A program made the translations under genes and the position numbers. 64,000 nucleotides of DNA, taken from the NCBI GenBank assembly GCA_003150515.1, contig QALW01000021.1, positions 163,644-227,643 on the forward strand, in the 5' to 3' direction. The notes beneath the pieces are model-generated. The model did not search any database, was not told the DNA's origin, and saw only the letters and a program-made list of their open reading frames with translations. Numbering within the stretch: position 1 is the stretch's first letter; each line of letters begins with the position of its first letter. Shown piece after piece: positions 14,959-52,309 of the stretch. This DNA comes from Selenomonadales bacterium (lineage in GTDB: Bacteria > Bacillota > Clostridia > Christensenellales > QALW01).

Positions 14959-15115
14959 AAAACATCCAGGGCGCATATAAAGGGGCGGGGCGGCTCGCGG
15001 CCCGGCCTGCGGCCGGGACAGGGGCGTTTTTGCAAAGCAAAAACCGCCCCTGCTTTGGCGCTAGGCACCAAAGCCGCGAGCCGCCCCGCCCCTTTATATG
15101 CACCCTGGATGTTTT
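14959..15115. repeat. GC-rich four-way-junction palindrome (hairpin cluster H1)
   Basis: A 43-bp outer stem (14959-15001 with 15073-15115, one mismatch) encloses three hairpins at 15002-15016, 15019-15052 and 15053-15073. Confidence 0.9.
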
Positions 15116-15141
15116 AGCGCTCTCAAACAAACAAAAACCGC

Positions 15142-15170
15142 TTGCATAAATATTCATTTTAATGTATAAT
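15142..15170 (+). promoter_or_regulatory. Putative sigma-A promoter of the arg operon with an overlapping ARG-box-like operator
   Basis: TTGCAT (15142-15147), a 17-nt spacer, then TATAAT (15165-15170). TGCATAAATATTCA (15143-15156) matches the TGAATwwwwATTCA ArgR/AhrC half-palindrome with one mismatch. Confidence 0.55.
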
Positions 15171-15205
15171 CCCATTAAATATTAAAGGACAGGATATGAT
15201 TAATT

Positions 15206-16246
15206 ATGATTAAAGCAAGCGTCATAGGCGCCACGGGATACGCCGGAGCAGAGTTGACCAGGCTTTTAACATCTCATCCAGACGTGGAAATAACCCATCT
15301 GGTCTCGCACAGCTATGCCGGCCAGGATATAAATCAAATATACAAGAGCTTTGACGGAAAATTTTCCAAAACTCTGGACGAATTGGATATAGACATGCTC
15401 ATCAGGGACAGCGACTGCATTTTCACCAGCCTGCCCCACGCTGCGGGCGGGGAGGTTATTCCTCAGCTTTACGCGGGCGGAAAAACCGTTATAGATTTAA
15501 GCGGGGACTACCGATATAACGATGTATCAATATACGAAAAATGGTACGGCGCCAGCCATCCTCATCCCGAACTGCTTAAAAAAAGCGTTTACGGCCTGCC
15601 CGAGCTGCACAGGGAGGAAATAAAAAAAGCCAGGCTTATAGGCAATCCCGGCTGCTATACAACCTGCTCCATACTGGCCCTGGCTCCTTTAGCCAAGGCG
15701 GGAATTATAGATAACTCCAGCATAGTAATAGACGCCAAATCAGGTTCCACGGGAGCGGGCCGTTCCGTCTCCCAAGCTATGCATTTCTGTGAGGTAAATG
15801 AAAGCGCAAAGGCATATAAAGTGGCCTCCCACCGTCATACCTCTGAAATTGAACAGGAATTATCCCTGCTTGCAGGAGAAGAGATTATGCTCTCCTTCAC
15901 CCCCCATTTGCTTCCCATAAACAGAGGCATACTGGCCACCAGCTATGCAAAGCTTACGGCGGACGTAGATTTTGATTACGTCTATAACCTCTATATGCAG
16001 GCGTATGCGCCCCATCCCTTTGTCGTTGTCTTAAATAACGGAGAGCTGCCCGAAATTAAGCATGTCGTCGGCTCCAACTATATCCATATAGGCTTTGTAA
16101 TAGATAAACGGCTTAAACGGATAATAGTAGTTTCGGTTATAGACAACCTGATAAAGGGCGCGGCAGGCCAGGCAATGCAAAATATGAATCTCTGCTTCGG
16201 CCTGGATGAAACCGCCGCTCTGAAAATGCCCGCGTGGTATCTCTAA
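15206..16246 (+). CDS. argC: N-acetyl-gamma-glutamyl-phosphate reductase
   Basis: 346 aa. Contains VIGATGYAG Rossmann motif and the active-site context GNPGCYTT. Confidence 0.95.
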   Translation: MIKASVIGATGYAGAELTRLLTSHPDVEITHLVSHSYAGQDINQIYKSFDGKFSKTLDELDIDMLIRDSDCIFTSLPHAAGGEVIPQLYAGGKTVIDLSGDYRYNDVSIYEKWYGASHPHPELLKKSVYGLPELHREEIKKARLIGNPGCYTTCSILALAPLAKAGIIDNSSIVIDAKSGSTGAGRSVSQAMHFCEVNESAKAYKVASHRHTSEIEQELSLLAGEEIMLSFTPHLLPINRGILATSYAKLTADVDFDYVYNLYMQAYAPHPFVVVLNNGELPEIKHVVGSNYIHIGFVIDKRLKRIIVVSVIDNLIKGAAGQAMQNMNLCFGLDETAALKMPAWYL

Positions 16247-16261
16247 AAGGAGGAATAAAAT

Positions 16262-17140
16262 ATGAACGACATATATAACGAATATATAGCCAAGGCAAAT
16301 ATTCTTATGGAGGCCCTGCCCTATATTCAAAAGCTTTCGGGCAAAACGGTTGTTATTAAATACGGCGGCAACGCTATGACAAACCAGGACATAACCAAAA
16401 CCATTCTGCAGGATATTACCCTGCTTAAATATGTAGGAGTAAACCCGGTAGTGGTGCACGGAGGCGGGCCCGAAATAAATAAAATGCTGGCCAAACTGGA
16501 GATTCAATCCTCTTTTCATAACGGACTGCGCATAACGGATGCCGCTACAATGGAAGTTGTGCAGATGGTGCTGACGGGCAAAATCAATAAGGACATCGTT
16601 TCCAGCATTAACGCCCTCGGGGGCAAAGCAATAGGTTTAAGCGGCAAGGATGCCTCTCTTATAACGGTAGAAAAAAAGCCTCCGACTTCAGACGGCGTAG
16701 ATTTAGGCTTTGTAGGAAAAGTAACGGGAATAAACACCAAACTGCTTGAAAAGCTTGTGCAGGACGAATATATTCCCGTAATAGCGCCCGTAGGAGCGGA
16801 CGAACAAGGCAACAGCTATAATATCAACGCCGATACCGTAGCGGGAGAAATCGCCGCCCGGCTCCAGGCGGAAAAACTTATATTCCTGACCGACACAGAC
16901 GGCATATATGAAGATTACCAGGACAAAAATTCCCTGATGAGCGTTATATCCATCGAAAAAATAAACGATATGATAGCTTCAGGCGCCATTGAGGGAGGCA
17001 TGATCCCAAAGGTGCAGGGCTGCATAAAAGGTATAGAATCAGGCGTGCACCGCACCCATATTCTTAACGGTACCATTCCTCACCCTCTTATACTTGAAAT
17101 ATTCACCGACAAAGGTATCGGCACAATGGTGCATAAATAG
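16262..17140 (+). CDS. argB: Acetylglutamate kinase
   Basis: 292 aa. Contains VIKYGGNAM and HGGGPEI motifs. RBS AGGAGG lies upstream. Confidence 0.95.
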
Positions 17141-19920: not shown

Positions 19921-20006
19921 GGGGTATTTCAAGACAACGCAACAAAGCGGACGCGCGGGCATTCTTCGCAAAAACGCATTGTACTTTAATTGTATTCTCT
20001 AAAGCT
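19921..20006. repeat. MITE-like repeat family, copy A (single conserved arm; possible degenerate partner at 19876-19920)
   Basis: The reverse complement, TTAGAGAATACAATTAAAGTACAATGCGTTTTTGCGAAGAATGCCCGCGCGTCCGCTTTGTTGCGTTGTCTTGAAATACCCC, aligns position by position with 27787-27871, with most positions matching. Confidence 0.7.
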
Positions 20007-24583: not shown

Positions 24584-24743
24584 AAAAGGCCGTGATAAGG
24601 GGGGCGTTAAGCCCAATAGGGGGGCGGCGTTTGGCAGGCTGAACCGCCTGCCCGGCCGGAGCCTTCGGCTTCGGCCGGCGGCCCTTCGGGCCGCAAACGC
24701 CGCCCCCCTATTGGGCTTAACGCCCCCTTATCACGGCCTTTTA
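24584..24743. repeat. GC-rich four-way-junction palindrome (hairpin cluster H2), also a probable bidirectional terminator
   Basis: A ~50-bp outer stem (24584-24633 with 24694-24743, one G bulge) is flanked by an A-run and a T-run. It encloses three hairpins at 24634-24651, 24652-24678 (cUUCGg loop) and 24679-24693 (cUUCGg loop). Confidence 0.9.
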
Positions 24744-26167: not shown

Positions 26168-26324
26168 GACAACTCAATCAGAATACAATGCTATGCAAAG
26201 GAAGAAATGATCCGTTTTACTGCGCCCTCCTCTTTCAAATATCTTAAATATTTTTAAGAGCTTGCATTAAAACGGACGCGTCTCTTCCGCAAAAAACATT
26301 GTATTCTGATTGATTTATCTAAGC
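26165..26324. repeat. MITE-like repeat family, copy B (complete, compact)
   Basis: The terminal inverted repeat caatcagaatacaatg (26178-26193) is the exact complement of cattgtattctgattg (26297-26312). The arms align with the two arms of copy C in the opposite orientation. The first bases, TAAGAC, include the stop codon of the upstream CDS. Confidence 0.8.
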
Positions 26325-27735: not shown

Positions 27736-27786
27736 CCCATACACACCCTTAATTTTATCATTAGCTAAAATAATTATATTACTTGA

Positions 27787-28068: not shown

Positions 28069-28093
28069 AATATAATCAGAGCAAAACATCCGC

Positions 28094-40207: not shown

Positions 40208-40711
40208 ATGTTCAAAATTAACCGTAAAACCATTGTGATTGCTTCCATGGTGCTGCTGCTACTTGTTACCGGCTTTTTAAATTGGAGATATACCCAAGCC
40301 AAAGCTGACGAGGATTTAAATAACAATAATAATATAACCAATCCGGACGACGGAGTAACCACCTCCAGCACCTTTTCAGATTACCGGCTGGAACGCGAGC
40401 GCACCCGCACCCAGGAAATAACCTATATAGACAGCATTATCAGCAACACGAACACTGACCAGGAAACGCTGGCGGAAGCACAGCTTATGAAGCTTGAGCT
40501 AACCGACACTATGGAAAAGGAAATGCTGCTCGAAGGACTTTTAAAGGCTAAAGGCTTTGAGGACGTATTTGTAACACTGGGTGATGAATCTATTAACGTA
40601 GTAGTTAAAGATGCGGAACTGAATCAATCAGAAGTAGCGCAGATACTTGAATTAGTCCAGCGTGAAACCTCCGCTTCAGCCCAGAATGTTAAAATCATTC
40701 CCACTACATGA
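40208..40711 (+). CDS. spoIIIAH: Stage III sporulation protein AH
   Basis: 167 aa with an N-terminal TM helix, an acidic linker and a C-terminal YscJ/FliF-like region. Last gene of the operon. Confidence 0.85.
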   Translation: MFKINRKTIVIASMVLLLLVTGFLNWRYTQAKADEDLNNNNNITNPDDGVTTSSTFSDYRLERERTRTQEITYIDSIISNTNTDQETLAEAQLMKLELTDTMEKEMLLEGLLKAKGFEDVFVTLGDESINVVVKDAELNQSEVAQILELVQRETSASAQNVKIIPTT

Positions 40712-40724
40712 ATATATGTTATTT

Positions 40725-40756
40725 AGCAGGGTTAAAAATTAGCCCTGCTTTTTTAT
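40725..40756 (+). terminator. Rho-independent terminator of the spoIIIA operon
   Basis: agcaggg (40725-40731) pairs with ccctgct (40743-40749), followed by a T-run to 40756. Confidence 0.7.
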
Positions 40757-40785
40757 TTAAATAATTATGCCCCGGATATAGGCGG

Positions 40786-41061
40786 GGATGGCGAAATGGC
40801 GCCCAGACCGGCATAAATGCCGGCCTGGGCGCCGGGGGCGCGCCGTTGGGCAAGCCTTAAGGCTTGCCCTTGGCCGAGCATAGCTCGGCCCGAGCGGCCT
40901 ACGGCCGCTCAACGGCGCGCCCCCGGCGGCCCCCATTCAAGCGCCCTATAGGGCGCTTGAATGGGGGCCGCAAAAGAGCGTGCAAAGAAAGCAAGCTTTC
41001 TTTGCACGCTCTTTTGCGGGCAAGGCCTGCTTTGCAGGCCTTGCCCGCCATTTCGCCATCC
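40786..41061. repeat. GC-rich nested hairpin array (cluster H3a), 276 nt
   Basis: A closing stem (40786-40799 with 41048-41061) encloses these hairpins:
- 40800-40831
- a four-way junction at 40832-40927, with arms at 40848-40869, 40872-40890 and 40892-40910
- 40927-40970
- 40971-41016
- 41017-41047
The hairpins are tiled with essentially no unpaired spacer. Confidence 0.9.
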
Positions 41062-41079
41062 TAGCCCCTTGCTCTAAAT

Positions 41080-41190
41080 TTCAAAGCCGGCGCAGCATGC
41101 GGCGTTTGGCAGGCTAATAGCCTGCCCGGCCGAACTTTGTTCGGCCCGCGGCCGCAGGCCGCAAACGCCGCATGCTGCGCCGGCTTTGAA
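41080..41190. repeat. GC-rich four-way-junction palindrome (cluster H3b), same core as H2
   Basis: A 29-bp outer stem (41080-41108 with 41162-41190) closes three hairpins at 41109-41125, 41128-41146 and 41148-41162. It shares GCGGCGTTTGGCAGGCT, GCCTGCCCGGCCG and GGCCGCAAACGCCGC with 24625-24705. Confidence 0.9.
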
Positions 41191-41234
41191 TCAAACCTTC
41201 ATGCAGCAAACCCAAAAATCTGCTAAACTCACTT

Positions 41235-42659: not shown

Positions 42660-42674
42660 AATTATCCTTTCCAA

Positions 42675-43844
42675 TTAAAAATAGCTTACCTTTATTCGCT
42701 TGCCCATTTTTTTAAGGCAATCGGCTAATTCGTCAACCAATCTCATCTTAATATTGAAATTTATAGGCAAATCCGGATTCTGATGAGCTGGATTGACCGC
42801 CCGCCCTACGTAAAAATTTATATCCGTAGCGTCCTCAAAGAGCATGCGCGCGATACAGGAAGCTCCGTCCTTTTTATAGCTCCATTGAGTGTAGGATTGA
42901 TTTTCGCGCAAATAATCCTGCGCATAGCTCAATACTTTATTTATGGTGATTACCCCTTCGGTTACAAGATCTACTCCCTCAATTTCTGCCGTAGGAGGTA
43001 TATCCGGATCGAAAAAATCTAATTTAGGCTTTAATTCCTTATGCAGATACGCCGCGGCAATGGTGGAGGTGGTGCCTCCGCATACGATATGCTTGCCCTC
43101 TTTAGAGAAAAATAAAGACATCATCTTATCGTTATCCTCCCTATTGGAAGGCGGCCCTATAACAAGATTGACAGGCTCCCGCCTACGTATGCGTATTGTG
43201 CAGACAGTAGTGTCGTCCCCCGGCTCATAGCCGTATAGCTTGTCGCATTCGTCCAGAAGAATGGTAGTAAGAGTTTTGGCAGTAAAGCCAACGTCATAGA
43301 AAGTCTCCATGAATTCTATAATATTCTTTCTTTCCCAGCCAAAATTCAGCGTCATGCCCACCCCGGCATGTATGCATCCATCGCTCATAGCTATAAATAT
43401 ATCGTTTTCTTTCAGCGCAATCTTAGATTGATAGATGGTCTTTCCGTCTATGCTCAGAATGGAGGAAGGAATTTCATAATTAGCTCCGTCCCGCAAAAGG
43501 ATGACATGGGGATTGTCATACTGAATAATCTCCGCCTCCTCATTATTCACTATGCGAATAATGGTAAACGTAGAATAAGCCACGCCCCGTTCAGAGCATA
43601 CCGGAAGAGTCGCGGCTATGGTATGCACGCATTCCTGTATATCCATGCCGTCCGCCATCATAGTAGAAATAATCTTAGAGGTCAGAGTAGACAATATGCT
43701 TGCTTTAACGCCGCTGCCCATGCCGTCCGCCAGTACGATAATTTCCGAATTATCCTGCCGCACAACATCGACATGGTCGCCGCATAGCTGCTCTCCCATT
43801 TTATTCAGGCTCCTCCAGCCTATATCAGCGCAAAGATCATTCAT
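42675..43844 (-). CDS. hfsC: PP2C/SpoIIE-family serine phosphatase (HfsC-like)
   Basis: 389 aa. The N-terminal half has SpoIIE/PP2C-like metal-binding segments (GEQLCGDH, VLADGMGSG). Overlaps the upstream gene by 8 nt. Confidence 0.8.
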   Translation of the reverse strand: MNDLCADIGWRSLNKMGEQLCGDHVDVVRQDNSEIIVLADGMGSGVKASILSTLTSKIISTMMADGMDIQECVHTIAATLPVCSERGVAYSTFTIIRIVNNEEAEIIQYDNPHVILLRDGANYEIPSSILSIDGKTIYQSKIALKENDIFIAMSDGCIHAGVGMTLNFGWERKNIIEFMETFYDVGFTAKTLTTILLDECDKLYGYEPGDDTTVCTIRIRRREPVNLVIGPPSNREDNDKMMSLFFSKEGKHIVCGGTTSTIAAAYLHKELKPKLDFFDPDIPPTAEIEGVDLVTEGVITINKVLSYAQDYLRENQSYTQWSYKKDGASCIARMLFEDATDINFYVGRAVNPAHQNPDLPINFNIKMRLVDELADCLKKMGKRIKVSYF

Positions 43845-45510
43845 CTGAAATGCTCTCCTTAAGCTTGGCCAGAGCTATTTTAGTTTCGGCCGCGGTTTCT
43901 CCCAACAGGGACGCAATTTCCTGCACTACGCGCATCTGCTTATCCACGACTTTATCGGCCGTCTCAATAGTGGCGCGGCTAATAGCTTCCTTTTTCTCCT
44001 TTTCATTCTCTATATCGGTTATATCCCTCATGATGCAGATAATAATCTTATATTCCTTATCATACAGGATTGTCTCTTCTACATATTTTCTATATTCGGC
44101 TAAATATACTCTGCGGTCCCGTATGCTCGTCCCGCTCTGCTTTACTTCCAGAAAATCCTTCGGATCCAAAATACGCACAACCTGCTCGCCCAGCACGTCG
44201 CCGGCGCTCCTGATATTCATTATATCCCGCGCCGCCGCGTTAATTTGCTGCACTTCAAAATCCTCGTTCAGCACAATAATGCCGTTGGGCGTATTGCTTA
44301 TAATATTATCAGAAAAGCTTTCCGCCTTATCCTTCAAATAAGGCAGGCACATATTTAAATCCGCCTTTCCCTGATAAACTGCAATCGCTTTTTCCCGGCA
44401 GGTATTATATCCGCAGCTTCCGCAGTTTAATTCGTCCTCAGGCTTAAGCTTGCCTATTTTTTTGAGAATCGCTTCTATTTCGGACTGCGTGGGCATAGCT
44501 CTGGACGTCCCAATAAAATCATGTTCGCGATATATTTCCTCCGGAGAAACAGGCGCCACGTCGAAATCCTCGCTTTTAGCATATGAGGCCACCTGATTAT
44601 AATTGCTCACCGGACTGCAATGATATTTTTCCATAACCGGACCGCCTACGCAGCTTCCCCGGCAGGCGGACATCTCTATAAAGCAATTTCTTAAATTGCC
44701 TTTTTCAATTTCCCTGAGCGCCGCTATACAGTCCTCCGTGCCGTCCAGCGCCAAATAGCTGTAATCCTTTCGGGGCAAAAACATAGATTTCAGAATGCCG
44801 CCCGTTGTAGGAAACAACCGCGCTCTTCCCTTGGAATTATCCTCCCTTGTGCGCTCCAGGCTAACTCCGCGCTTGCGCATAAGACTGGAAAGCTCCTCAA
44901 AGGTCAGCACGCAGTCCACGGGCCCGGGGTATCTATCCGCCTCGTCCTTTTTAGAAACGCACGGACCGATAAAAATGGTCTTCGCGTCAGGATAGCGCTT
45001 TTTTATATCCATACAATGAGCCTGCATGGGCGAAACCACTTTGGCAAGATATCTAAGAGCGGAAGGAAAATATTTTTCTATGAGCAGGTTAATAGAATGA
45101 CAGCAGGAAGATATAATTACATCCTGTTCTCCCTCTTGTAAAAGCCTGTCGTATTCTTTCTTAACTATAGTCGCGCCGATAGCCGTTTCCTCGGCGGCAT
45201 AAAAGCCAAGCTGCTTAAGCGCCTTTTCCATAGCCTCTATGCCCGCTCCGTCATAATTAGCCGTAAAGGAAGGCGCCAGGCTGGCTATTACCTTGCCACT
45301 GTTAAGCAGCACTTCCGCCTTTTCAGTATTGTCCGCAATCTCTTTGGCGCCCTGCGGACATACTACAAAGCATTGTCCGCATAAAATGCATTCTTCCGGC
45401 ACAATATGCGCCTGATTAGCCGAAATCCTTATGGATTTTACCGGACAATGACGTATGCATTTATAACAGTTTTTGCAATTAGATTTTTTCAGCCTTAAAA
45501 ATTCAGCCAT
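43837..45510 (-). CDS. hydS: Sensory [FeFe]-hydrogenase (group C, HydS/HfsB-like) with C-terminal PAS domain
   Basis: 557 aa with the following parts in order:
- two N-terminal 4Fe-4S motifs
- H-domain motifs SSCCHS, GPCVSKKDE and EMSACRGSCVGG
- an extra Cx2Cx4Cx16C motif (CGSCGYNTC...C)
- a PAS-like segment (NGIIVLNEDFEVQQINAAARDIM)
- a coiled-coil tail. Confidence 0.85.
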   Translation of the reverse strand: MAEFLRLKKSNCKNCYKCIRHCPVKSIRISANQAHIVPEECILCGQCFVVCPQGAKEIADNTEKAEVLLNSGKVIASLAPSFTANYDGAGIEAMEKALKQLGFYAAEETAIGATIVKKEYDRLLQEGEQDVIISSCCHSINLLIEKYFPSALRYLAKVVSPMQAHCMDIKKRYPDAKTIFIGPCVSKKDEADRYPGPVDCVLTFEELSSLMRKRGVSLERTREDNSKGRARLFPTTGGILKSMFLPRKDYSYLALDGTEDCIAALREIEKGNLRNCFIEMSACRGSCVGGPVMEKYHCSPVSNYNQVASYAKSEDFDVAPVSPEEIYREHDFIGTSRAMPTQSEIEAILKKIGKLKPEDELNCGSCGYNTCREKAIAVYQGKADLNMCLPYLKDKAESFSDNIISNTPNGIIVLNEDFEVQQINAAARDIMNIRSAGDVLGEQVVRILDPKDFLEVKQSGTSIRDRRVYLAEYRKYVEETILYDKEYKIIICIMRDITDIENEKEKKEAISRATIETADKVVDKQMRVVQEIASLLGETAAETKIALAKLKESISDE

Positions 45511-45556
45511 TTTAGTCCTCCCTGCCCTTTTTTAAGAGTGCTGGTTAATTGATAGC

Positions 45557-45796
45557 TTATATCCTGCTCAGTATTTCACGGTTAAAGAACTGCTCTGTGC
45601 TCTCGGGCGAAAGAGAATATAATTCCCCGTCCAGCGTCACGCACACGCCTTTCTGGCAGTTGCCCATGCAAAAGGTGCCGCTTAATTCCACCCTGTCTCC
45701 AAGAGCGTTCTTCTCAATAAGCTGCTGCAAGCCCTGCACCACCTGTCTGGAACCCTTAAGATGGCACGAGCTGCCAATACATACCGTAATTTTCAT
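45557..45796 (-). CDS. hfsA: Thioredoxin-like [2Fe-2S] ferredoxin-domain protein (HfsA-like)
   Basis: 79 aa: MKITVCIGSSCHLKGS...GTFCMGNCQKGVCV. The four Cys are in the NuoE/HndA-like pattern. Confidence 0.8.
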   Translation of the reverse strand: MKITVCIGSSCHLKGSRQVVQGLQQLIEKNALGDRVELSGTFCMGNCQKGVCVTLDGELYSLSPESTEQFFNREILSRI

Positions 45797-45921
45797 GCTT
45801 GCGTCTCCTTTCCTGATGCTCTTTTCCTAGCCCGTCCGCCGTTATCAGCAGCGGATAATATATTTTTATTCTAAACGCATCCCGAATCCATTTTTCAAAT
45901 CTCCGGCGCGTTTTTTACAAT

Positions 45922-47685
45922 TCAGCCTACAGCTTCGCTGACGGCGTAAGTCACGGGGAAATCGCCTCTGGAGGTTGAATAGGTGGTGCGAACCAACAGC
46001 TCTCCCTCTCTGCCCGCGTCCAGAATGCCGTTTACGCAGTCAAACAGCTTGGACAGGCTGCCCGAAGCTATATCGTAGCAATATATTTCATGCATAAATA
46101 CGTCTTCCTCCGTATCGGATACGACATACACTTTATCGTTATTAACCGAGAAGAAATAATCGCTTATTATCCGCTCCCCTATAAGCTCCTTGCTCTCGCC
46201 CGTCTGGTTATCATATAAACTAAGCTTTGTATAGCCGTCCGACATATCCGCTTCATTGCTCTGCAAAAGAATATATCTGCCGTCCGAGCTCATAGAAAAC
46301 ATGCCCACCTCGGCTATTTCGTTCTGTTCGCCGCTCTCAAGCTCCAGGCTTACAAGAGTTTCCGCCTCATCCACGACATCAATATAATATAATTTTCCGT
46401 CAAAGGCATAAAGGGAGGTATCTATTCCCGCTCCCTCTGAAACAGGGGAAGTCTCTCCCGAGGCAATATCGTATTTCTTAAGATTGAGCATTATATCCAC
46501 AGCGGACATCATATATATGCTCTGGCTGTCGGAAGCCCAGGCAATGCCGGAAATATATGTTCCCACCTCTTCCTCGGGAAGATTGGTCCGGGTGTGAGTA
46601 TTAAAATCATAGATAGAGCAATACTGAATTTCATCAACCTGCTCTATTATAAGCAGCTTGGAGCCGTCGGGCGAATAAGCTCCGAACACAATCTGGGCGT
46701 ATTCGTCGTTAAGCAATTGGGTTTTAACCCCCTGGCTATCCACCGTAAAGAGATATTCCAGGGCCATCTCGTCGTAAGACGTGCCCTCGCTTCTCTTAGA
46801 AAATACCGCCGTGCTCTTATCGGGCGACCAGCATATAAATACTCCGTCGGGGAAGAGCGCCTGAGCGGTTTCCTCCTGCCCGTCCCGACGTATTACCTTT
46901 TTTAAATTAATGGCGTCCAAATCCTCCTGGGCATAATATTCAGGAAGCTTGCCCGCTTCAAGCTGAATGACTCTTAATTCCTTGCCGGCCAGCGCCTCGG
47001 AAAAATCAGTTTTGATTTTATTCATAAGAGCCTCGGCTTCGCTTTGCTCCCCAAAGGCGCGGCTAATCATTACAACGTTGGTAAGATCCGTCGCAAGCGT
47101 GGGCGTGAGCTCCGCTTCCTCGGGCAGGCTGCCCTCTGAATATTCGTAATAGAGATTGCCCACGACATAATAAGCCTGAGAAGCCTGGAAATCCTTTTTA
47201 GCCAAATCTACAACAAGCCGGCCGTCCTCTTCAGAAACCGTCATATTGGTCATAGAGGATAAATTAAAATATAAATCAGTCGCGCCCGAACGGCTTTCAG
47301 AAGGCAGCACCTTTACAACTCCTCCTTGGATAAGGCCGGTTTCGTCGCTGATAATGCTGTTGTTGACATAATCCCAATGGGCAAGCGCCGCAATGCTTAA
47401 TTTAAGTCTGTACGGAGTATCCGTTAAGGAAAGCGTATAGGGCGGCAGGCCCTTCATGGCCTGTTCCTGCGCCGTGACTCCCTCGCTTCCGCATACAAAG
47501 GAAAACACCAGCCTTACTCCCTGTTCGGTTTTTTCCACAAGAATATCCTTTAAATTTGCGCTTTCCTGCTCGGAGCCTCCAGAGACAACGTTCAAAGCGT
47601 CCGAAGGATTGTTTGTCTCTTTTCCGCACGAGCTGAGACATAAGAGCATAATGCCCGCAAGCATAAAAGCTATTAATTTTTTCAT
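45922..47685 (-). CDS. Lipoprotein with C-terminal beta-propeller (PD40/TolB-like) repeats, function unknown
   Basis: 587 aa. Lipobox LCLSSCGKE. The C-terminal half has repeated YSPDGSKLL / SSDGRYILL type blades. RBS AAAGGAA. Confidence 0.55.
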   Translation of the reverse strand: MKKLIAFMLAGIMLLCLSSCGKETNNPSDALNVVSGGSEQESANLKDILVEKTEQGVRLVFSFVCGSEGVTAQEQAMKGLPPYTLSLTDTPYRLKLSIAALAHWDYVNNSIISDETGLIQGGVVKVLPSESRSGATDLYFNLSSMTNMTVSEEDGRLVVDLAKKDFQASQAYYVVGNLYYEYSEGSLPEEAELTPTLATDLTNVVMISRAFGEQSEAEALMNKIKTDFSEALAGKELRVIQLEAGKLPEYYAQEDLDAINLKKVIRRDGQEETAQALFPDGVFICWSPDKSTAVFSKRSEGTSYDEMALEYLFTVDSQGVKTQLLNDEYAQIVFGAYSPDGSKLLIIEQVDEIQYCSIYDFNTHTRTNLPEEEVGTYISGIAWASDSQSIYMMSAVDIMLNLKKYDIASGETSPVSEGAGIDTSLYAFDGKLYYIDVVDEAETLVSLELESGEQNEIAEVGMFSMSSDGRYILLQSNEADMSDGYTKLSLYDNQTGESKELIGERIISDYFFSVNNDKVYVVSDTEEDVFMHEIYCYDIASGSLSKLFDCVNGILDAGREGELLVRTTYSTSRGDFPVTYAVSEAVG

Positions 47686-47788
47686 ACTGCTATTCCTTTC
47701 ATGATTATTTCCGTCTTGCAGACGGGATAAAGTTATATTCCCCGTAAAAATACACGTCCCCGTCCCTAAAAGGGCATTATAAATAATT

Positions 47789-49060
47789 TCAGAACAAAGC
47801 TGCGCAAAGCTCCTTCAGCCGCGCGGCCGCGCGTTCCTTATCCACAGTAAGGCATTCCCCTTCTTTAACCAGCACGCGCCCGTTTACAATATTATAGCGA
47901 ACATCGCAGCTTTCAGCGCTGTATGCAATAATTCCATAGACGTCGTGCACAGGCTCTAAAAACAGAGAGGGATACAATACGAGCACATCGGCCGCGAAGC
48001 CCTCTTTAATCCTGCCTCCCTTATAGCCCAAAGCGGCCGCGCCGTTGACCGTGGCCATTTCAACAGCCGAATAAGCGTCAAGCGCCTGAGCGTCAAGCGT
48101 ATAGCCCTTTTGGAGCACAGAAGCCGTAAAGAGCTCCCTAAACATATCCAAATTATTATTGCTGCCGTTTCCGTCCGTCCCTAAGGCCGGCTTTATACCC
48201 GTTTCCAGCATAAGCTTGACAGGCGCTATGCCGCTGGCCAGCTTTAGATTGCTGACGGGATTATGCACGGGAATAATGTTATGCTCCAGCATTAACGACA
48301 TATCCTCCCTGCTCACCACCGTACAATGAGCGGCTATGGTGCTTTCAGGCAGGCCCAGGCTCGCAAGCCATTTAATGGGCGAGACGCCGTGCCGCTCCAT
48401 GCAGCCCTGAACTTCCGCGACAGTTTCGCTTGCATGTATATAAAACGGACTTCCCCAGCTTTTCGCCCGGCTTATAACTTCCCTGAGCGCGTTTTCCGAA
48501 CATGTGTATTCGGCGTGAGCCGAGGCCAGCACGTTAATCCTGCCCTCCCGGCCGTTATAGAGCTTATACATTTCTTCCAGTTCAGCCAGCCGGCGCTTTA
48601 AGCCGGCCTCGCCGTCTGCGTCCACAACATTTCTGCTTATAAACGCCCTTACGCCGCTCTCCAGGCAGGCCCGGGCTGTCCCCGTAACGTCCAGATACAT
48701 ATCGTTTACGCAGGCGCTGCCTCTCTCCAGGGCTTCGGCGCAGGCTATAAGAGCAAAATGATAAATCAGTTGATCGTCCAGCTTATCTTCAATCTTAAAA
48801 ATCCTCTCCAGCCATTTATTCAAGGGCAAATCTGAGGCAAAGCTTCGGAAGCAGCTCATGCCCAAATGCGTATGGGCGTTTACCAGGCCGGGCATAACTA
48901 TGCCTCCGCGCGCGTCAATAACTTCGGCGTTATCAGCATTAACCAGAGCCTCCCCCACATATTTTATTTCTGTGCCGCTGATTAAAACGCATCCGTTTCT
49001 ATATACAGCGCCGTCATCCATTGTAACTATATGCGCATTTTTGATTAAAATGTCTTTCAT
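47789..49060 (-). CDS. mtaD: Amidohydrolase, 5'-methylthioadenosine/S-adenosylhomocysteine deaminase type
   Basis: 423 aa. Contains the metal-binding motif NAHTHLGMS and the motif HASET. Has a 4-nt overlap with ahcY. Confidence 0.8.
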   Translation of the reverse strand: MKDILIKNAHIVTMDDGAVYRNGCVLISGTEIKYVGEALVNADNAEVIDARGGIVMPGLVNAHTHLGMSCFRSFASDLPLNKWLERIFKIEDKLDDQLIYHFALIACAEALERGSACVNDMYLDVTGTARACLESGVRAFISRNVVDADGEAGLKRRLAELEEMYKLYNGREGRINVLASAHAEYTCSENALREVISRAKSWGSPFYIHASETVAEVQGCMERHGVSPIKWLASLGLPESTIAAHCTVVSREDMSLMLEHNIIPVHNPVSNLKLASGIAPVKLMLETGIKPALGTDGNGSNNNLDMFRELFTASVLQKGYTLDAQALDAYSAVEMATVNGAAALGYKGGRIKEGFAADVLVLYPSLFLEPVHDVYGIIAYSAESCDVRYNIVNGRVLVKEGECLTVDKERAAARLKELCAALF

Positions 49061-50310
49061 AGCCCCTCCCTCTCGGCGTCGCCGTATAAATACTCTCTCT
49101 GCGCCGGGGAAAGCTCGTCAATAGCCGCTCCCATGCTTCTGAGCTTAAGCCGGGCTACCCGCTTATCCAATTCCTCCGGAACATCATACACCTTATTCTT
49201 CAGAATTGAATAATTTTGAGCTATATAGCGTGCGGTAAGAAGCTGCAAAGCAAAAGAAGTATCCATTATTTCGGCCGGATGTCCGTCTCCGGCGGCTAAA
49301 TTAACCAATCTGCCCTCAGCCAGCAGATATAATTTCCTTCCGTCCCGCATATAATAGCAATCAATATTTTTGCGGACGCATTCTTTTTTAACGGCCGCGC
49401 TTTCCAGAAACGCTTTATCCACTTCAACGTCAAAATGGCCTGCATTGCACATAATCGCCCCATCCCGCATTTGCTTCATATGGGCTTCAGTAATCACTTG
49501 CTTGCAGCCGGTAGCCGTTATAAAGAGCTCGCCCAGTTTGCACGCTTCCAGCATAGGCATAACTTCATAGCCGTCCATGACCGCCTCTATTGCTTTAAAT
49601 GGGTTTATTTCGCAGACAGTTACCCTTGCTCCCAGAGCCTTAGCGCGCATAGCTATGCCTCTTCCGCACCAGCCATAACCAGCTATAACCACTCTGCGCC
49701 CCGCCACCAGCAGATTAGTCGTGCGCATTATGCCGTCCCATACAGACTGGCCCGTGCCGTATCTATTATCAAAAAGATATTTGCTCATAGCGTCGTTTAC
49801 AGCAATCATGGGAAAAAGGAGCTCGCCTCTGTTTTGACGCGCGCGCAGCCGCAGCACTCCGGTCGTCGTTTCTTCAGCGCCGCCCCTGATATTCTCCGCA
49901 GCGTTTTTCAATTTTCCATGCAGCAGCGAAACCAGATCGCCGCCGTCGTCTATTATCTGATGGGGCTTATTCTCAAGCGTGCAGCACAAATGCCGTTCAT
50001 ATTCCTCCTCGTTCGCTCCATGAACTGCAAAAACTTCAACCTCCTGAGCAAGAGCGGCCGCAACATCGTCCTGAGTGGAAAGTGGATTGCAGCCCGTAGC
50101 ATAAACCTGAGCTCCTCCCGCTTTAAGGACTAAAGCCATATACGCCGTTTTAGCTTCCATATGGATGGACAAAGCTATTCTTATTCCCTCCAAAGGCCGC
50201 TCGCGCGCAAACTCTTCTTCTATAATATTTAATACAGGCATATGGGCGCGCACCCACTGTATTTTACGCCAGCCTTCTTCGGCCAGACTCATATCCTTAA
50301 TAAGGCTCAT
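49057..50310 (-). CDS. ahcY: Adenosylhomocysteinase
   Basis: 417 aa. NAD-binding motif GYGWCGRG. Full-length AhcY-type sequence. Confidence 0.93.
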   Translation of the reverse strand: MSLIKDMSLAEEGWRKIQWVRAHMPVLNIIEEEFARERPLEGIRIALSIHMEAKTAYMALVLKAGGAQVYATGCNPLSTQDDVAAALAQEVEVFAVHGANEEEYERHLCCTLENKPHQIIDDGGDLVSLLHGKLKNAAENIRGGAEETTTGVLRLRARQNRGELLFPMIAVNDAMSKYLFDNRYGTGQSVWDGIMRTTNLLVAGRRVVIAGYGWCGRGIAMRAKALGARVTVCEINPFKAIEAVMDGYEVMPMLEACKLGELFITATGCKQVITEAHMKQMRDGAIMCNAGHFDVEVDKAFLESAAVKKECVRKNIDCYYMRDGRKLYLLAEGRLVNLAAGDGHPAEIMDTSFALQLLTARYIAQNYSILKNKVYDVPEELDKRVARLKLRSMGAAIDELSPAQREYLYGDAEREGL

Positions 50311-50473
50311 GAAAGTTCTCCTTTTATAGATTAACGCTAAGATAATTATACAATAAAAAACGAAAAAACGCTATAAAAATCTAAAAATATATTCAGGGAA
50401 TCACTTGATATATTGTAAATAATTATATGTGTTATTTTGCCTGTTTTTTGCAATATTTTAATTGCAAAAATTA

Positions 50474-50658
50474 CTGAGGCCCGCAAATAAATAAGGCGCT
50501 CAAGCGCCTTATTTATTTGCGGGCCTCAGCCTCCTGGCAGGGGTATGCCAATAGTCTTAAAGCGCGGGCGGCTCGCGCTTTAAGACTATTGGCATACCCC
50601 TGCCAGGAGGAACAAATGACGGCCTATGTCCGGCAACGCCGGACATAGGCCGTCATTT
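50474..50658. repeat. Three tandem perfect long hairpins (cluster H4)
   Basis: Three hairpins: 26-bp stem at 50474-50529 (loop tcaa), 37-bp stem at 50530-50610 (loop ggcggct) and 21-bp stem at 50614-50658 (loop aac). All stems are perfect. Confidence 0.9.
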
Positions 50659-50687
50659 ACAAAAACTAATCTCTCATAAACAGAAAC

Positions 50688-51935
50688 TCACACATAAAAA
50701 GCATGATTTCCTAATATGCAATAGAGACTTCTATTTCTCGCCGCCCACGAATTAGTAACAGATTTATTATTAAAATATAAACTGTTGCCCACGGGCTTCG
50801 CTCCAAAATATGCCTCAATAGCCGCGTTTAAACTGGACTGCGAAGGAGTATTGGAAAAATAGCCTTTCTTGGCTGTGCTGAATTGATTCTTAGCAAATAT
50901 AACGCCCTCAATGGTGCCGTTAGTCTGCTTAACGCGATTCATTACAACACTTCCAACGGCCACCTGTCCTGTATAGCTCTCATGTCCTGATTCCGCATAA
51001 ATCAACTGCGCCAAGAGATAAATATCTTCTTTTTTGCTGCTGGAAAGCGAATCATATTTATCCTGAAGGGAACTTGAATCACTAGCAGTAAAATTAACTT
51101 CCTTGGAGCCGGAACTTTCTCCTTTGAGGGCGCTCTCTAATTTAGCAAACGTCTTAGTACCCGCAATTCCATCTACAACCAGACCGTTATCTCTCTGAAA
51201 ATCCTTAACTGCATCACGCGTTATTTCCAGAAACAGACCGGTAGAAGTAGCGTCAAAATAGCCGAGCTTTTTAAGCTGATTCTGCAATTCCTGCACTTTG
51301 CTGCCCTTGTCTCCGTAACGCAGAGTGCCCGCCTTGGCTATATATGTGCTGGTAGTGGTGGTAGTAGATTTAACGGATGTACCCGTCTCGCCTGAAGCGG
51401 AAACGCATTTGCCGGTTAATTTAGCAATGGTATCCTCTCCGACTATACCGTCCGCTTTCAAATTATTATTTTTCTGGAACTGCTTAACGGCGTTGTAAGT
51501 AAGCGAACCGAAATATCCAGTATCATATCTTGAGCCCAGATAACCCTTAATTATGAGCAATCTTTGTATTGCCCGTACATCCTCGCTTCTCTGCCCCATC
51601 TTATATACATCGCTGGTATCAAAAGAAGTGCTGTCAAATAAGGACATCAAAGTTTTGGGACCAACTACGCCTATAGCGTCTATGCCGTTGTCTTCCTGAT
51701 ATTCAATAACCGCAGCCTCAGTAATGGTACCAAAATATCCCGTAGTATGCTTCTGCTGCATGTATCCTAAATCAACCAGTCTCTGCTGTATAAGCTTAAC
51801 ATCATCTCCGCGGCAAGTAATCTCAAACTGTCCAACCGGCCGTTCCGAGGCCGCAGCCGCCGGAAACGCCATAATCATTACGGTTAAAACAAGCAATACT
51901 GCAACAATTAATTTACTCTTTAAAAATCGTTTCAT
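50688..51935 (-). CDS. sleB: SleB/CwlJ-family cell-wall (spore cortex) hydrolase with three PG_binding_1 repeats
   Basis: 415 aa with a signal peptide, three peptidoglycan-binding repeats (GYFG...AV..FQ..N.L..DGI.G..T) and a C-terminal Hydrolase_2 domain (LLAQLIYAESGHESYTGQVAVGSVVMNRV). Confidence 0.8.
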   Translation of the reverse strand: MKRFLKSKLIVAVLLVLTVMIMAFPAAAASERPVGQFEITCRGDDVKLIQQRLVDLGYMQQKHTTGYFGTITEAAVIEYQEDNGIDAIGVVGPKTLMSLFDSTSFDTSDVYKMGQRSEDVRAIQRLLIIKGYLGSRYDTGYFGSLTYNAVKQFQKNNNLKADGIVGEDTIAKLTGKCVSASGETGTSVKSTTTTTSTYIAKAGTLRYGDKGSKVQELQNQLKKLGYFDATSTGLFLEITRDAVKDFQRDNGLVVDGIAGTKTFAKLESALKGESSGSKEVNFTASDSSSLQDKYDSLSSSKKEDIYLLAQLIYAESGHESYTGQVAVGSVVMNRVKQTNGTIEGVIFAKNQFSTAKKGYFSNTPSQSSLNAAIEAYFGAKPVGNSLYFNNKSVTNSWAARNRSLYCILGNHAFYV

Positions 51936-52136
51936 CAGGTTTGCCTCCTTAATGCGCCTTAACAGGGTATGGGCGCTTCAAATTGCTACCCTATGGCAAT
52001 AATTATGCCTCTTGTTTTTAATTTATGCACGCATTATAACACGAGTGAAATGAAAATGCAATAGTTTTGTAATATTTAATTGTGAATTTTTTATGTGCGC
52101 CTTTTTACGAGGAAATATTTTAAAATTTTTCAGGCT

Positions 52137-52309
52137 GGCCCTGGGCGCGTAAACGCGCCCAGGGCCAAAGTCTCAATATAGCCCGGAAAGCTTTGCTTTC
52201 CGGGCTATATTGAGACTTTGCGCCCGGCCTAAAGGCCGGGCGCAGCCCTTTAAATAAACGGCCGATGGGCTCAAGATATCAAAAATGATATCTTGAGCCC
52301 ATCGGCCGT
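52137..52309. repeat. Four tandem perfect hairpins (cluster H5)
   Basis: Four perfect hairpins at 52137-52166 (13 bp, taaa), 52167-52219 (25 bp, ttt), 52220-52243 (10 bp, taaa) and 52258-52309 (24 bp, aaaa). Confidence 0.9.

What the first reader, a model, noticed from the sequence alone, without database searches (positions are those of the whole stretch)
14959..52309. Five intergenic clusters of tiled, near-perfect GC-rich hairpins
Seen directly: five intergenic regions contain roughly 25 stem-loops between them. The regions are 14959-15115, 24584-24743, 40786-41190, 50474-50658 and 52137-52309.
- Stems are 6 to about 50 bp long and almost all are perfect.
- Loops are mostly 3-4 nt (taaa x3, ttcg x2, ttt x4, aaaa, tata, gca, tac).
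- Hairpins are packed back to back with almost no unpaired spacer.
- The clusters are visibly more GC-rich than their AT-rich intergenic surroundings.
- Most arm sequences are unique, so this is not a simple dispersed repeat and not CRISPR.
- Sub-motifs do recur. CCCGGCC...GGCCGGG hairpins occur in four clusters. An identical 12-mer GGGCGGCTCGCG occurs at 14988-14999 and 50566-50577.
- The clusters sit in every type of gene context: divergent promoters, co-directional gaps and convergent ends. Only some carry flanking A/T runs, so ordinary intrinsic terminators do not explain them.

Inference: a lineage-specific class of structured elements. They could be mRNA-end protectors or insulators, or cruciform-forming DNA. 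Alternatively they could be the products of a palindrome-generating (template-switch or fold-back) process that keeps the arms perfect.
Basis: partly seen in the sequence, partly recalled or inferred. Interest (0 to 1): 0.8.

Follow-up and report, generated by a model that had tools for sequence, protein, structure and literature searches.

The report
Nested GC-rich palindromic repeat modules
An uncultured gut Christensenellaceae bacterium carries, in about one intergenic gap in five, hyper-stable nested DNA palindromes built from two related repeat modules that fold as perfect four-way junctions; they behave like selfish REP/MITE-type DNA whose arms are kept complementary by strand-switch copying, not like a structured RNA gene.

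Summary
The five regions are the window's hyper-stable outliers (one marginal GC-rich coding segment aside), with folds 14-27 SD below shuffles, and independent assemblies reproduce them. The description needs two corrections.

- The hairpins are nested: outer stems of 5-50 bp enclose three or more hairpins.
- The inner cores are dispersed repeats. Module A has about 20 non-redundant strong model matches in 281 kb of DNA fetched largely by an A-core pattern. Module B occurs in all five carrier species. Both share the ends GGGGCGG(GG)CGGC...

Family A shows strong covariation, almost all Watson-Crick to Watson-Crick. On the sense strand, G.U is not favoured over A.C. Module orientation is not fixed.

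Strains of one species differ by loop reverse-complement flips, mirrored substitutions and deletions of whole hairpins. One cluster (c3) is absent from a sister species. Samples of 13.5-21.6 kb from each of four more distant relatives hold none.

No partner transposase, target-site duplication or Rfam match was found.

Best reading: a lineage-restricted family of REP/MITE-like palindromic DNA. It sits mostly just past stop codons, sometimes doubles as a terminator, and is maintained by template switching. I rate it a new variant of a known kind, of moderate to high interest.

The parts
14959..15115 (.). Cluster c1. A locus-specific host palindrome (arms 14959-14981 and 15093-15115) encloses one family B module. 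It lies between the divergently transcribed icd-like (-) and argC (+) genes.
   Evidence: I1: 43-nt arms, 98% complementary; z=-14.8.
14982..15092 (-). Family B four-way-junction module. P1 is 14982-15000 with 15074-15092 (GGGGCGGGGCGGCTCGCGG). hp_c (GCCCGGCC type) is 15001-15017, hp_b is 15019-15051 and hp_a (TTTGGCGC type) is 15052-15073.
   Evidence: fold -96.3 kcal/mol, and the same architecture in L010, L014, L016, L034, L035, L036. (38.3 bits, a generic junction match to the family A model).
24584..24743 (.). Cluster c2. A host palindrome of about 35 bp (AAAAAGGCCGTGAT...ATCACGGCCTTTT, with A and T tracts at its base) encloses a family A module. It begins 28 nt after the stop codon of the ABC transporter gene.
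   Evidence: I3, I14; z=-19.0.
24619..24708 (+). Family A module. P1 is 24619-24633 with 24694-24708, P2 is 24634-24651, P3 is 24652-24678 and P4 is 24679-24693.
   Evidence: covariation; 81.3 bits, E=6.5e-14.
40781..41066 (.). Cluster c3a. A 21-bp outer stem (40781-40801 with 41046-41066) encloses five units: one hairpin, one A-like four-way junction, and three long hairpins (40926-40971, 40968-41019, 41016-41048).
   Evidence: I16, I9-I11; -265.8 kcal/mol, z=-21.2. Absent from the sister species.
40832..40926 (+). A-like module nested inside c3a (P1 GGCGCGCCGTTG with three hairpins).
   Evidence: 73.6 bits, E=2.4e-12.
41080..41190 (.). Cluster c3b. A 29-bp stem (its outer part locus-specific, its inner part the P1 helix of the module) encloses a family A module; the model match spans 41091-41179 on the + strand. 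Strains L048 and L051 lack exactly P3+P4 (36 nt).
   Evidence: I5; z=-13.6; (89.8 bits, E=1.2e-15).
50474..50658 (.). Cluster c4. Three back-to-back long hairpins (50474-50529, 50530-50610, 50614-50658), 30 nt downstream of the SleB-like gene (-). The tip of the middle hairpin (50563-50577, holding the 12-mer) is a one-arm remnant of a family B module that is complete in strain L022 and in the sister species.
   Evidence: I2, I8, I13; z=-24.1.
52136..52244 (.). Cluster c5a. A B-like triple of hairpins (52136-52167, 52166-52220, 52219-52244) inside a short GGCTG/CAGCC stem. The middle hairpin ends in the recurrent tip GGAAAGC-nnn-GCTTTCC.
   Evidence: one compensated substitution within the species; in the sister species the middle hairpin is replaced by a stem carrying family A.
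52249..52318 (-). Cluster c5b. A 24-bp perfect hairpin (52258-52309) with an A/T extension. It is terminator-like for the upstream lipoprotein ORF (52348-52629, -).
   Evidence: I6; called a terminator on the - strand; two compensated substitutions plus the loop flip TTTT to AAAA between strains.
40725..40749 (+). Ordinary intrinsic terminator of spoIIIAH, given for context. It precedes c3 and is conserved in the sister species that lacks c3.

Best explanation
The clusters are a lineage-restricted family of nested palindromic DNA repeats. In kind they resemble REP/REPIN, MITE or organellar GC-cluster elements.

Building blocks (shown): two related modules.
- Module A is about 90 nt: P1 GGGGCGGCGTTTG, P2 GCAGGC, P3 CCGGCCG..., P4 CGGCC.
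- Module B is 110-220 nt: P1 GGGGCGGCGCGG, hp_a TTTTGGCGC, a long variable hp_b, and hp_c GCCCGGCC.
- Both share the ends GGGGCGG(GG)CGGC...GCCG(CC)CCGCCCC. Each folds on either strand into a perfect four-way junction with almost no unpaired bases.

Arrangement (shown):
- Modules sit at the exact centre of larger, locus-specific palindromes.
- They also sit at the tips of hairpins of other modules, which gives the nested look.
- They lie in intergenic DNA, mostly 3-90 nt past a stop codon and clear of the next promoter.

How they spread (inferred): an unidentified copying or insertion process that favours the centres of existing palindromes.

How they are maintained:
- Complementarity of the arms acts at the DNA level, not through selection on an RNA (shown by the strand-symmetry tests).
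- The mechanism is replication template switching, in other words arm-to-arm conversion. This copies changes from one arm to the other and inverts loops (inferred from the strain differences and from published work).

How they decay (shown): slippage deletions remove whole hairpins.

Side effects: some outer stems carry A/T tracts and act as bidirectional terminators (inferred). The elements break short-read assemblies (shown). They may mediate rearrangements (possible).
For: Repeat families:
- The A core pattern hits only two species among GTDB representatives and 12 metagenome contigs.
- The family A model finds about 20 non-redundant strong sites in 281 kb and none in the distant relatives L055 and L056.
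- B copies occur in five species. L031 343-437 is an intermediate with B-type ends and an A-type interior.

Structure is conserved while sequence varies:
- 97.9% of cells are paired, against 84.1 +/- 1.1% in shuffles and 33-49% with slid partners.
- 18 of 35 pairs show changes on both sides, against 8.1 +/- 1.5 in shuffles. 0 of 500 shuffles reach the observed values.
- The changes include GC to CG. Only three G.U cells occur among 378.

DNA level rather than RNA level:
- Helix-internal G.U 7 vs A.C 11 on the sense strand, p=0.48.
- Sense-strand loops TTC 7 vs GAA 6.
- Orientation is 7 sense to 4 antisense. L002 matches only on the strand opposite to the orthologous window c2.
- c1 lies between divergent genes.
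- Folds are equally extreme with DNA parameters and on the other strand.

Template-switch signature between strains with identical flanking proteins:
- Loop flips TTTT/AAAA, GTT/AAC, ATA/TAT and GATA/TATC.
- Three mirrored substitutions with none unmirrored in c5, in hairpins of 52-55 nt. These are too short for a k-mer collapse artefact, and the variant appears in four assemblies.
- Mirrored substitution and mirrored 1-nt indel in L002.
- The published model for such correction is PMC5941160.

Turnover and persistence:
- Stems stay about 97% Watson-Crick in both species despite 22-28% cluster divergence.
- Indel positions are about 14 times denser in clusters than in flanks. Examples are the 36-nt loss of exactly P3+P4, the roughly 120-nt loss of a B module that leaves a one-arm scar, and the decayed copy in L037.
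- c3 is missing from a sister species that keeps the ordinary terminator.
- Clusters spread over co-directional, convergent and divergent gaps roughly in proportion to availability: 17/56, 6/21, 3/16. For divergent against the other two classes pooled, Fisher p=0.54.
Against: - No partner enzyme was found. No transposase-like family recurs next to clusters in 224 kb. The window itself is all housekeeping genes.
- There is no direct target-site duplication.
- No near-identical paralogous copies exist. Paralogues share only the 75-95 nt core at 80-90% identity. Mobility is therefore inferred from dispersal and from differences between species. No insertion was caught in progress.
- The origin of the locus-specific outer stems is unexplained. 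They match nothing in 214 kb of non-cluster DNA.
- Most very recent substitutions are single-sided, and substitution density is only about 1.7 times that of the flanks. Conversion is therefore slow relative to mutation. Selection for pairing cannot be separated from conversion over longer times.
- Position just after stop codons, and A/T tracts at stem bases, are also what a selected terminator function would give.
- The G.U vs A.C sample is small (18 sites).
Confidence: 0.58

Rival explanations
1. The clusters are selected RNA-level elements: extra-strong, often bidirectional transcription terminators and 3'-end protectors against exonucleases. Selection on RNA pairing keeps the stems perfect. 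The shared cores reflect convergent or duplicated terminator modules.
For: - Most clusters start 3-90 nt after a stop codon and leave the next promoter free.
- c5b is called a terminator in the sense of its upstream gene.
- Module flanks follow the layout A-tract, GC stem, T-tract.
- Clusters at c4 and c5 persist at the same sites in two species despite 22-28% divergence.
- The structures are so stable that they would block 3' exonucleases.
Against: - No sense-strand preference for G.U over A.C.
- Loops are strand-symmetric and flip between strains.
- Module orientation is mixed and flips at an orthologous site.
- c1 lies between divergent genes and, as I read the promoter motifs, upstream of both promoters.
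- c3 follows an ordinary terminator and is absent from a sister species.
- Most hairpins lack a U tract.
- A conserved P1 sequence at many loci is not expected of independently evolved terminators.
Confidence: 0.22
2. The modules are multi-copy structured non-coding RNA genes or cis-regulatory RNAs with a four-way-junction fold.
For: Conserved four-helix architecture with covariation; GC-rich islands in AT-rich intergenic DNA.
Against: - No Rfam family at gathering score. Sub-threshold hits are generic hairpin models, mostly miRNA precursors, several of which match both strands about equally.
- There are no conserved unpaired nucleotides and almost no G.U pairs.
- Both orientations occur.
- Whole helices are deleted in some strains.
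- No promoter is associated with the modules.
Confidence: 0.05
3. The elements are cruciform-forming or protein-bound DNA with a chromosomal function, for example supercoiling sinks, nucleoid-protein or junction-binding sites, or insulators between transcription units.
For: Strand-symmetric, DNA-level conservation of perfect palindromes and four-way junctions. They occur in all types of intergenic context, including a divergent promoter region.
Against: There is no evidence for any binding protein. c3 is dispensable and clusters are absent from relatives. Indels and decay are frequent.
Confidence: 0.1
4. The palindromes are assembly or sequencing artefacts, either fold-back chimeras or de Bruijn graph collapse that makes the arms look perfect.
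For: Many contigs end inside clusters. Arms longer than k collapse in de Bruijn graphs. L005 may be a chimeric join.
Against: - Identical cluster sequences are recovered from many samples and assemblers.
- The assemblies retain mismatches and bulges.
- The key compensated changes and loop flips lie in hairpins of 52-55 nt with arms shorter than k=31, and they are seen in four assemblies.
- Homologous modules occur in MAGs from human and chicken samples.
Confidence: 0.02

Closest known systems
REP / BIME / REPIN elements with RAYT transposases (Proteobacteria; PMC3116915, PMC3337134, PMC3733652)
   Same: - Short intergenic palindromic repeats, dispersed in many copies and often just downstream of genes.
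- They occur in higher-order clusters.
- Compensatory changes keep the hairpin.
- They are inherited vertically for long periods.
- REPINs can fold as one long hairpin or as a clover shape.
   Different: - The ends are GGGGCGG..., with no GTAG or CGTC head.
- The unit is a perfect four-way junction with three inner hairpins, not a doublet of two REPs.
- Modules nest inside each other's hairpin tips and inside locus-specific palindromes.
- The host is a member of the Clostridia.
- No RAYT was found, although the whole genome could not be searched.
MITEs (non-autonomous DDE transposon derivatives, for example Correia/NEMIS, ERIC, RUP, bcr1)
   Same: Conserved terminal inverted repeats with a variable interior; small size; intergenic; presence or absence differs between related genomes.
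   Different: There are no target-site duplications, and the flanks are inverted repeats rather than direct ones. No related autonomous element was seen. The internal structure is an all-helical junction, and paralogues are 80-90% identical only in the core.
Organellar GC clusters and hairpin elements (yeast mitochondrial GC42 and others, PMC4478555; sponge RHE, PMC2800124; Volvox palindromic repeats, PMC2670323; Allomyces double-hairpin elements)
   Same: - GC-rich palindromic elements in AT-rich intergenic DNA.
- Structure is constrained while sequence varies.
- Elements merge and shuffle into composites.
- Presence or absence is polymorphic.
- No encoded enzyme and an unknown mechanism of spread.
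   Different: These are mitochondrial or plastid families, unrelated in sequence, and mostly single or double hairpins. Here the host is a bacterial chromosome, the modules are four-way junctions and the nesting is recursive.
Perfect inverted repeats maintained by template switching (Ripley model; Lavi et al. 2018, PMC5941160)
   Same: Imperfect arms are corrected to perfect ones, and perfect repeats are conserved between related genomes. The loop inversions and mirrored changes seen here are the expected footprints.
   Different: That work concerns ordinary short repeats (arms under 20 bp) scattered in proteobacterial non-coding DNA. It does not concern a dispersed family of nested modules of 90-290 nt with arms up to 50 bp.
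Parvovirus/AAV inverted terminal repeats (T-shaped hairpins with flip and flop forms; from my own knowledge, not checked here)
   Same: A long stem carries small palindromes at its tip, and the interior exists in two orientations that are reverse complements. Compare L002 with window c2.
   Different: Those are ends of linear single-stranded viral genomes replicated by rolling-hairpin synthesis with a Rep nickase. Here the elements are internal to a bacterial chromosome, and the family A core pattern is absent from viral contigs.

Membership tests
REP/REPIN-RAYT system | Short intergenic palindromic repeat present in many dispersed copies | tested here: met
   About 20 non-redundant strong family A matches in 281 kb, plus B copies in five species, all of them intergenic.
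REP/REPIN-RAYT system | Conserved GTAG or CGTC tetranucleotide at one end of the palindrome (PMC3733652) | tested here: not met
   Module ends are GGGGCGG(GG)CGGC and the adjacent flanks are A/T-rich. No GTAG or CGTC head is visible in the listed copies.
REP/REPIN-RAYT system | Replicative unit is two inverted REPs separated by a spacer and forming a hairpin | tested here: inconclusive
   The P1 arms are inverted repeats around an interior. That interior is three self-folding hairpins (a four-way junction), not a simple spacer.
REP/REPIN-RAYT system | A single-copy RAYT (Y1/HUH transposase) gene flanked by the repeats | tested here: inconclusive
   No recurrent transposase-like ORF in 224 kb of element-bearing loci, and none in the window. 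A complete genome could not be searched.
MITE (DDE-type non-autonomous transposon) | Terminal inverted repeats conserved among copies | tested here: met
   The shared ends GGGGCGG(GG)CGGC...GCCG(CC)CCGCCCC occur across A, B and the intermediate copy in several species.
MITE (DDE-type non-autonomous transposon) | Direct target-site duplication flanking each copy | tested here: not met
   In 12 copies the longest direct repeat at the junction is 0-2 nt. The flanks are inverted repeats instead, perfect for 9 to at least 14 nt in 5 of 12 copies.
MITE (DDE-type non-autonomous transposon) | A related autonomous element with the same ends | not testable with these tools
   This needs a whole-genome search. 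None was seen in the DNA held.
Intrinsic (Rho-independent) terminators | GC-rich hairpin followed directly by a U tract, downstream of a gene in its sense | tested here: inconclusive
   Met for c5b, and by reading for the outer stems of c1 and c2. Not met for most inner hairpins. c1 lies between divergent genes, and c3 follows an ordinary terminator.
Known structured RNA families (Rfam 15) | Match to a covariance model at its gathering score | tested here: not met
   No match at gathering score over the whole window. In the E-value scan, run on 40600-52500 only (c3-c5), the hits are generic hairpin models, mostly miRNA precursors, several of which match both strands about equally.
Structured RNA under RNA-level selection (general) | Sense-strand tolerance of G.U over A.C, fixed orientation relative to transcription, strand-specific loops | tested here: not met
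   G.U 7 vs A.C 11, p=0.48. Loops TTC 7 vs GAA 6. Orientation 7 sense to 4 antisense, with a flip at an orthologous site.
Template-switch-maintained inverted repeats | Arm-to-arm copying of changes and inversion of the spacer between related genomes | tested here: met
   Four loop reverse-complement flips, one flip of a module interior, three mirrored substitutions in c5, and a mirrored substitution plus mirrored indel in L002.
CRISPR array | Regularly spaced direct repeats separated by unique spacers | tested here: not met
   The repeats are inverted and nested with no regular direct-repeat spacing. Only a weak sub-threshold CRISPR-DR9 match to a 22-nt palindrome, on both strands.

The most novel reading that the evidence does not exclude
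The elements could be a new kind of structure-targeting mobile DNA. In that reading, four-way-junction modules integrate specifically at the tips or centres of existing DNA hairpins. Alternatively, palindromes could grow around the modules by repeated strand switching. Either an as yet unrecognised enzyme or host replication alone would drive this. The result would be recursive, fractal-like palindromes without target-site duplications. This would be a self-propagating palindrome-building process in a bacterial chromosome.
Probability: 0.2. Interest if true: 0.8.

Novelty: new variant of a known kind. Interest (0 to 1): 0.6.

Why it matters
- If the reading is right, this is a little-explored type of bacterial repeat, found in Clostridia, where REP-like elements are poorly described. 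Its unit is a perfect four-way junction and it nests recursively.
- Public metagenomes already give visible footprints of template switching between strains: loop flips and mirrored changes. That makes the elements a natural system for measuring palindrome correction, inversion and deletion in the wild.
- There is a practical consequence. The elements end contigs, including contigs of 122-468 kb. They generate spurious small ORFs and possibly chimeric joins. They therefore degrade MAGs of a common human-gut lineage.
- If some copies act as bidirectional terminators, they also show how selfish palindromes can be co-opted at gene ends.

Tried and rejected
- tRNA and Rfam searches found nothing relevant.
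- The family A core pattern is absent from viral contigs, and a composite B+A element has no match in PLSDB plasmids or INPHARED phages.
- Partner-gene search by clustering 194 ORFs from element-bearing loci returned only orthologous housekeeping families. Pfam annotation of the window found no transposase or nuclease.
- I tested whether the outer stem arms are inverted copies of other DNA, as a fold-back origin would predict. There is no match in 214 kb of non-cluster sequence. The only hits were family A cores at contig ends that my mask had missed.
- My T-run analysis on MFE folds was uninformative, because folding absorbs the A and T tracts into the stems. I used the consensus scanner instead.
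- Counts of compensated pairs between species on MAFFT alignments are unreliable, because diverged palindromes misalign. For those comparisons I relied on reading hairpin by hairpin.
- My first impression that the stems evolve very fast was tempered by the tally: substitutions are only about 1.7 times denser than in flanks, and indels about 14 times.
- The shared 9-mer GGGGCGGCG alone is not significantly enriched in the window: 4 matches against 1.7 expected.
- The assembly-artefact explanation was rejected because independent assemblies reproduce the sequences and the key hairpins are shorter than the k-mer collapse limit.

Full report
**1.

Reading the five regions shows dense, near-perfect inverted repeats. 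Of the 25 longest inverted repeats in the window, 16 fall inside them.

Each region folds far below its dinucleotide shuffles:

| Cluster | RNA fold (kcal/mol) | z-score |
|---|---|---|
| c1 | -136 | -14.8 |
| c2 | -152 | -19.0 |
| c3a | -266 | -21.2 |
| c3b | -98 | -13.6 |
| c4 | -170 | -24.1 |
| c5 | -156 | -21.2 |

No shuffle of 200 reached the observed energy in any case. DNA parameters give the same structures, also on the other strand (z=-18.7 for c2 and -26.8 for c4).

An 80-nt sliding MFE scan of the whole window flags exactly these five regions plus one marginal GC-rich coding segment. Background is -16.3 +/- 6.9 kcal/mol, and the clusters reach -49 to -78.

The clusters fill 5 of 25 intergenic gaps of at least 100 nt and make up 12% of intergenic DNA. 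Their GC is 52-67%, against 27-40% in the flanks. The chance that all five fall in intergenic DNA is 6e-5.

They are not artefacts. The same sequences appear in many independent assemblies from different samples and assemblers.

**2. Two corrections to the description**

First, the hairpins are nested. c1, c2 and c3b are each one long outer stem (29-50 bp) enclosing three hairpins. c3a is a 21-bp stem enclosing five units, one of which is itself a stem with three hairpins. c5a is three hairpins in a short stem. Only c4 is simply tiled.

Second, the inner cores are dispersed repeats.

- **Family A:** the cores of c2 and c3b are homologous. The pattern GTTTGGCAGGC-N(3-12)-GCCTGCCCGGCC hits only two species among 185,579 GTDB representatives: Candidatus Neochristensenella gallicola and the uncultured Clostridiales MAG UMGS1037. 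It also hits 12 metagenome contigs and no viral contig.
- **Family A fold:** eleven copies align as a four-way junction with helices P1 to P4. A covariance model finds about 20 non-redundant strong sites in 281 kb. In the window these are c3b (89.8 bits), c2 (81.3) and the inner unit of c3a (73.6).
- **Family B:** this module has P1 GGGGCGGCGCGG, hp_a TTTTGGCGC, a long variable hp_b and hp_c GCCCGGCC. The tip of hp_b is often GAAAGC-nn(n)-GCTTTC, or it carries a nested A module. B is present in all five carrier species, including window c1.
- **Relationship:** a copy with B-type ends and an A-type interior (L031 343-437) links the two families. All modules share the ends GGGGCGG(GG)CGGC.
it is a one-arm remnant of a B module. 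That module is complete in strain L022 and in the sister species.

**3. Organism and context**

The window is housekeeping chromosome of a spore-forming Firmicute: the Rnf operon, LepA, PEPCK, the spoIIIA operon, arg genes, FeoB and others. Proteins identical to those in the window are labelled in their source records as Christensenellaceae, Clostridiales or Selenomonadales bacterium MAGs.

Position of each cluster:

- c2, c4 and c5 begin about 30 nt after a stop codon.
- c3 lies between convergent genes, after an ordinary terminator.
- c1 lies between the divergently transcribed icd-like and argC genes. As I read the promoter motifs, it is upstream of both promoters.

Over 224 kb from several species, clusters occupy 17 of 56 co-directional gaps, 6 of 21 convergent gaps and 3 of 16 divergent gaps. 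For divergent gaps against the other two classes pooled, Fisher p=0.54. They usually lie 3-90 nt past the upstream stop codon.

**4. The structure is conserved at the DNA level**

On the family A alignment:

| Measure | Observed | Shuffled | Partners slid |
|---|---|---|---|
| Cells forming a standard pair | 97.9% | 84.1 +/- 1.1% | 33-49% |
| Pairs with a change on both sides | 18 of 35 | 8.1 +/- 1.5 | 4-7 |

No shuffle of 500 reaches the observed values. The changes are nearly all Watson-Crick to Watson-Crick, including GC to CG, and only three cells are G.U.

Across 38 clusters, 96.8% of helix-internal positions are Watson-Crick. On the sense strand of the upstream gene, G.U (7) is not favoured over A.C (11), p=0.48. 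Loops are almost all 3-4 nt and are strand-symmetric, with TTC 7 against GAA 6. Module orientation relative to the upstream gene is 7 sense to 4 antisense. Rfam offers only generic hairpin matches, mostly miRNA precursors, and several match both strands about equally. Selection on a specific RNA strand predicts none of this.

**5. Strain and species comparisons show how the elements change**

Between strains whose flanking proteins are identical:

- **Loop flips:** whole loops are replaced by their reverse complements. The cases are TTTT/AAAA in c5b, GTT/AAC in c4, and ATA/TAT and GATA/TATC in c3.
- **Module flip:** the interior of c2 is flipped in L002, which matches the A model only on the opposite strand.
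- **Mirrored changes:** c5 carries three substitutions, each mirrored on the opposite arm, and none unmirrored. These lie in hairpins of 52-55 nt, which are too short for k-mer collapse, and the variant is seen in four assemblies. L002 has a mirrored substitution and a mirrored 1-nt insertion.
- **Whole-hairpin deletions:** L048 and L051 lack exactly P3+P4 (36 nt). The window and L023 lack a B module of about 120 nt. The copy in L037 is decayed.

Pooled over the within-species pairs:

| Measure | Clusters | Flanks |
|---|---|---|
| Substitutions | 2.2% | 1.3% |
| Gap positions | 57 of 2,865 | 8 of 5,508 |

Most very recent substitutions are still single-sided.

Between the window species and a sister species whose SleB-like protein is 89% identical, the orthologous c4 and c5 hairpins differ at 22-28% of positions and in length. 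Both species nevertheless keep near-perfect stems. The adjacent promoter DNA is highly conserved.

Loop inversion together with arm-to-arm copying is the published footprint of replication template switching at inverted repeats (PMC5941160).

**6. The elements are dispensable and confined to one lineage**

In a sister species whose SpoIIIAH is 96% identical, the ordinary terminator of spoIIIAH is conserved. The whole 410-nt c3 complex is replaced there by about 250 nt of unrelated, non-palindromic DNA.

A species at 78-88% protein identity has only single B modules.

Four more distant relatives have no cluster in samples of 13.5-21.6 kb each. One of them is the cultured Gehongia tenuis.

**7. 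What could not be established**

- **Partner enzyme:** no recurrent transposase-like gene lies near the clusters in 224 kb.
- **Target-site duplication:** there is none. Modules sit at the exact centre of locus-specific palindromes whose inner flank is A/T-rich, which gives the layout A-tract, GC stem, T-tract.
- **Recent copies:** paralogues share only the 75-95 nt core at 80-90% identity, so no recent transposition is visible.
- **Outer arms:** they match nothing else in 214 kb, so their origin is unknown. Possibilities are pre-existing hairpins, outward growth of the palindrome, or old diverged modules.

**8. Conclusion**

- **Best explanation (confidence about 0.58):** a lineage-restricted family of nested palindromic repeat modules. 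It is selfish or near-neutral DNA of the REP/MITE/GC-cluster kind. It resides in permissive intergenic sites, mostly at gene ends, and is sometimes co-opted as a terminator.
- **Maintenance and decay:** complementarity is maintained at the DNA level by template switching. Decay proceeds by hairpin-mediated deletion.
- **Main rival (about 0.22):** a selected RNA-level terminator or stabiliser function. Position and A/T tracts favour it. Strand symmetry, orientation flips, the divergent-region copy and the dispensability of c3 count against it.
- **Family membership:** the elements are not members of the REP/RAYT family as defined, since they lack the GTAG/CGTC head and no RAYT was found. They are not classical MITEs either, since they lack target-site duplications. 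They work most like those families and like organellar GC clusters.
- **Rating:** a new variant of a known kind.

Noticed in passing
window 26167-26320 and 27783-28070 (also 19977-19999 and about 28068-28090): A second, unrelated repeat family. These are AT-rich MITE-like elements with terminal inverted repeats of roughly 23-32 nt, (TTAG)ACAAyWyAATCAGArTAmAATG. There are two full copies of 154 and 288 bp. The search pattern gave 5 matches against 0.00 expected.
   Followed up: partly
L005 about 4960-5280 (orthologue of window c2): This contig matches the window up to P4 of the c2 family A core. It then continues into a different A copy (P1 of the GGAGCCGCCCCCC type) next to purL. This is either a real rearrangement between two A copies or a chimeric assembly join.
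   Followed up: no
L006-L008, L024-L029 and L051-L054 (orthologues of window c2, c3, c4 and c5): Many contigs end inside the clusters. They include contigs of 122-468 kb that end in c3, and contigs of about 1.6 kb that hold only the gene between c4 and c5. The palindromes are systematic breakpoints for short-read assembly in this lineage.
   Followed up: partly
window 52173-52274 (-); L050 2001-2108; ORF proxies over L010, L039 and L035: GC-rich palindromes give open reading frames, so mechanical ORF lists and gene callers place small ORFs across the clusters that are probably spurious.
   Followed up: no
L037 7468-7650 compared with L036 14679-14866: These are orthologous composite B+A elements from related strains. 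The L037 copy has lost part of one hp_b arm and most of hp_c, which is a visible decay intermediate.
   Followed up: partly
window 7671-7760: The only coding segment that reaches the hyper-stability threshold (-40.7 kcal/mol, 68% GC). It lies inside the ORF 7621-8493 (VCA0040-like membrane protein) and is probably just GC-rich coding sequence.
   Followed up: no
window 31527-33011 (+) and 58735-59610 (-): Two sizeable ORFs (494 and 291 aa) with no Pfam match at E<=1e-5. Neither is adjacent to a cluster.
   Followed up: no
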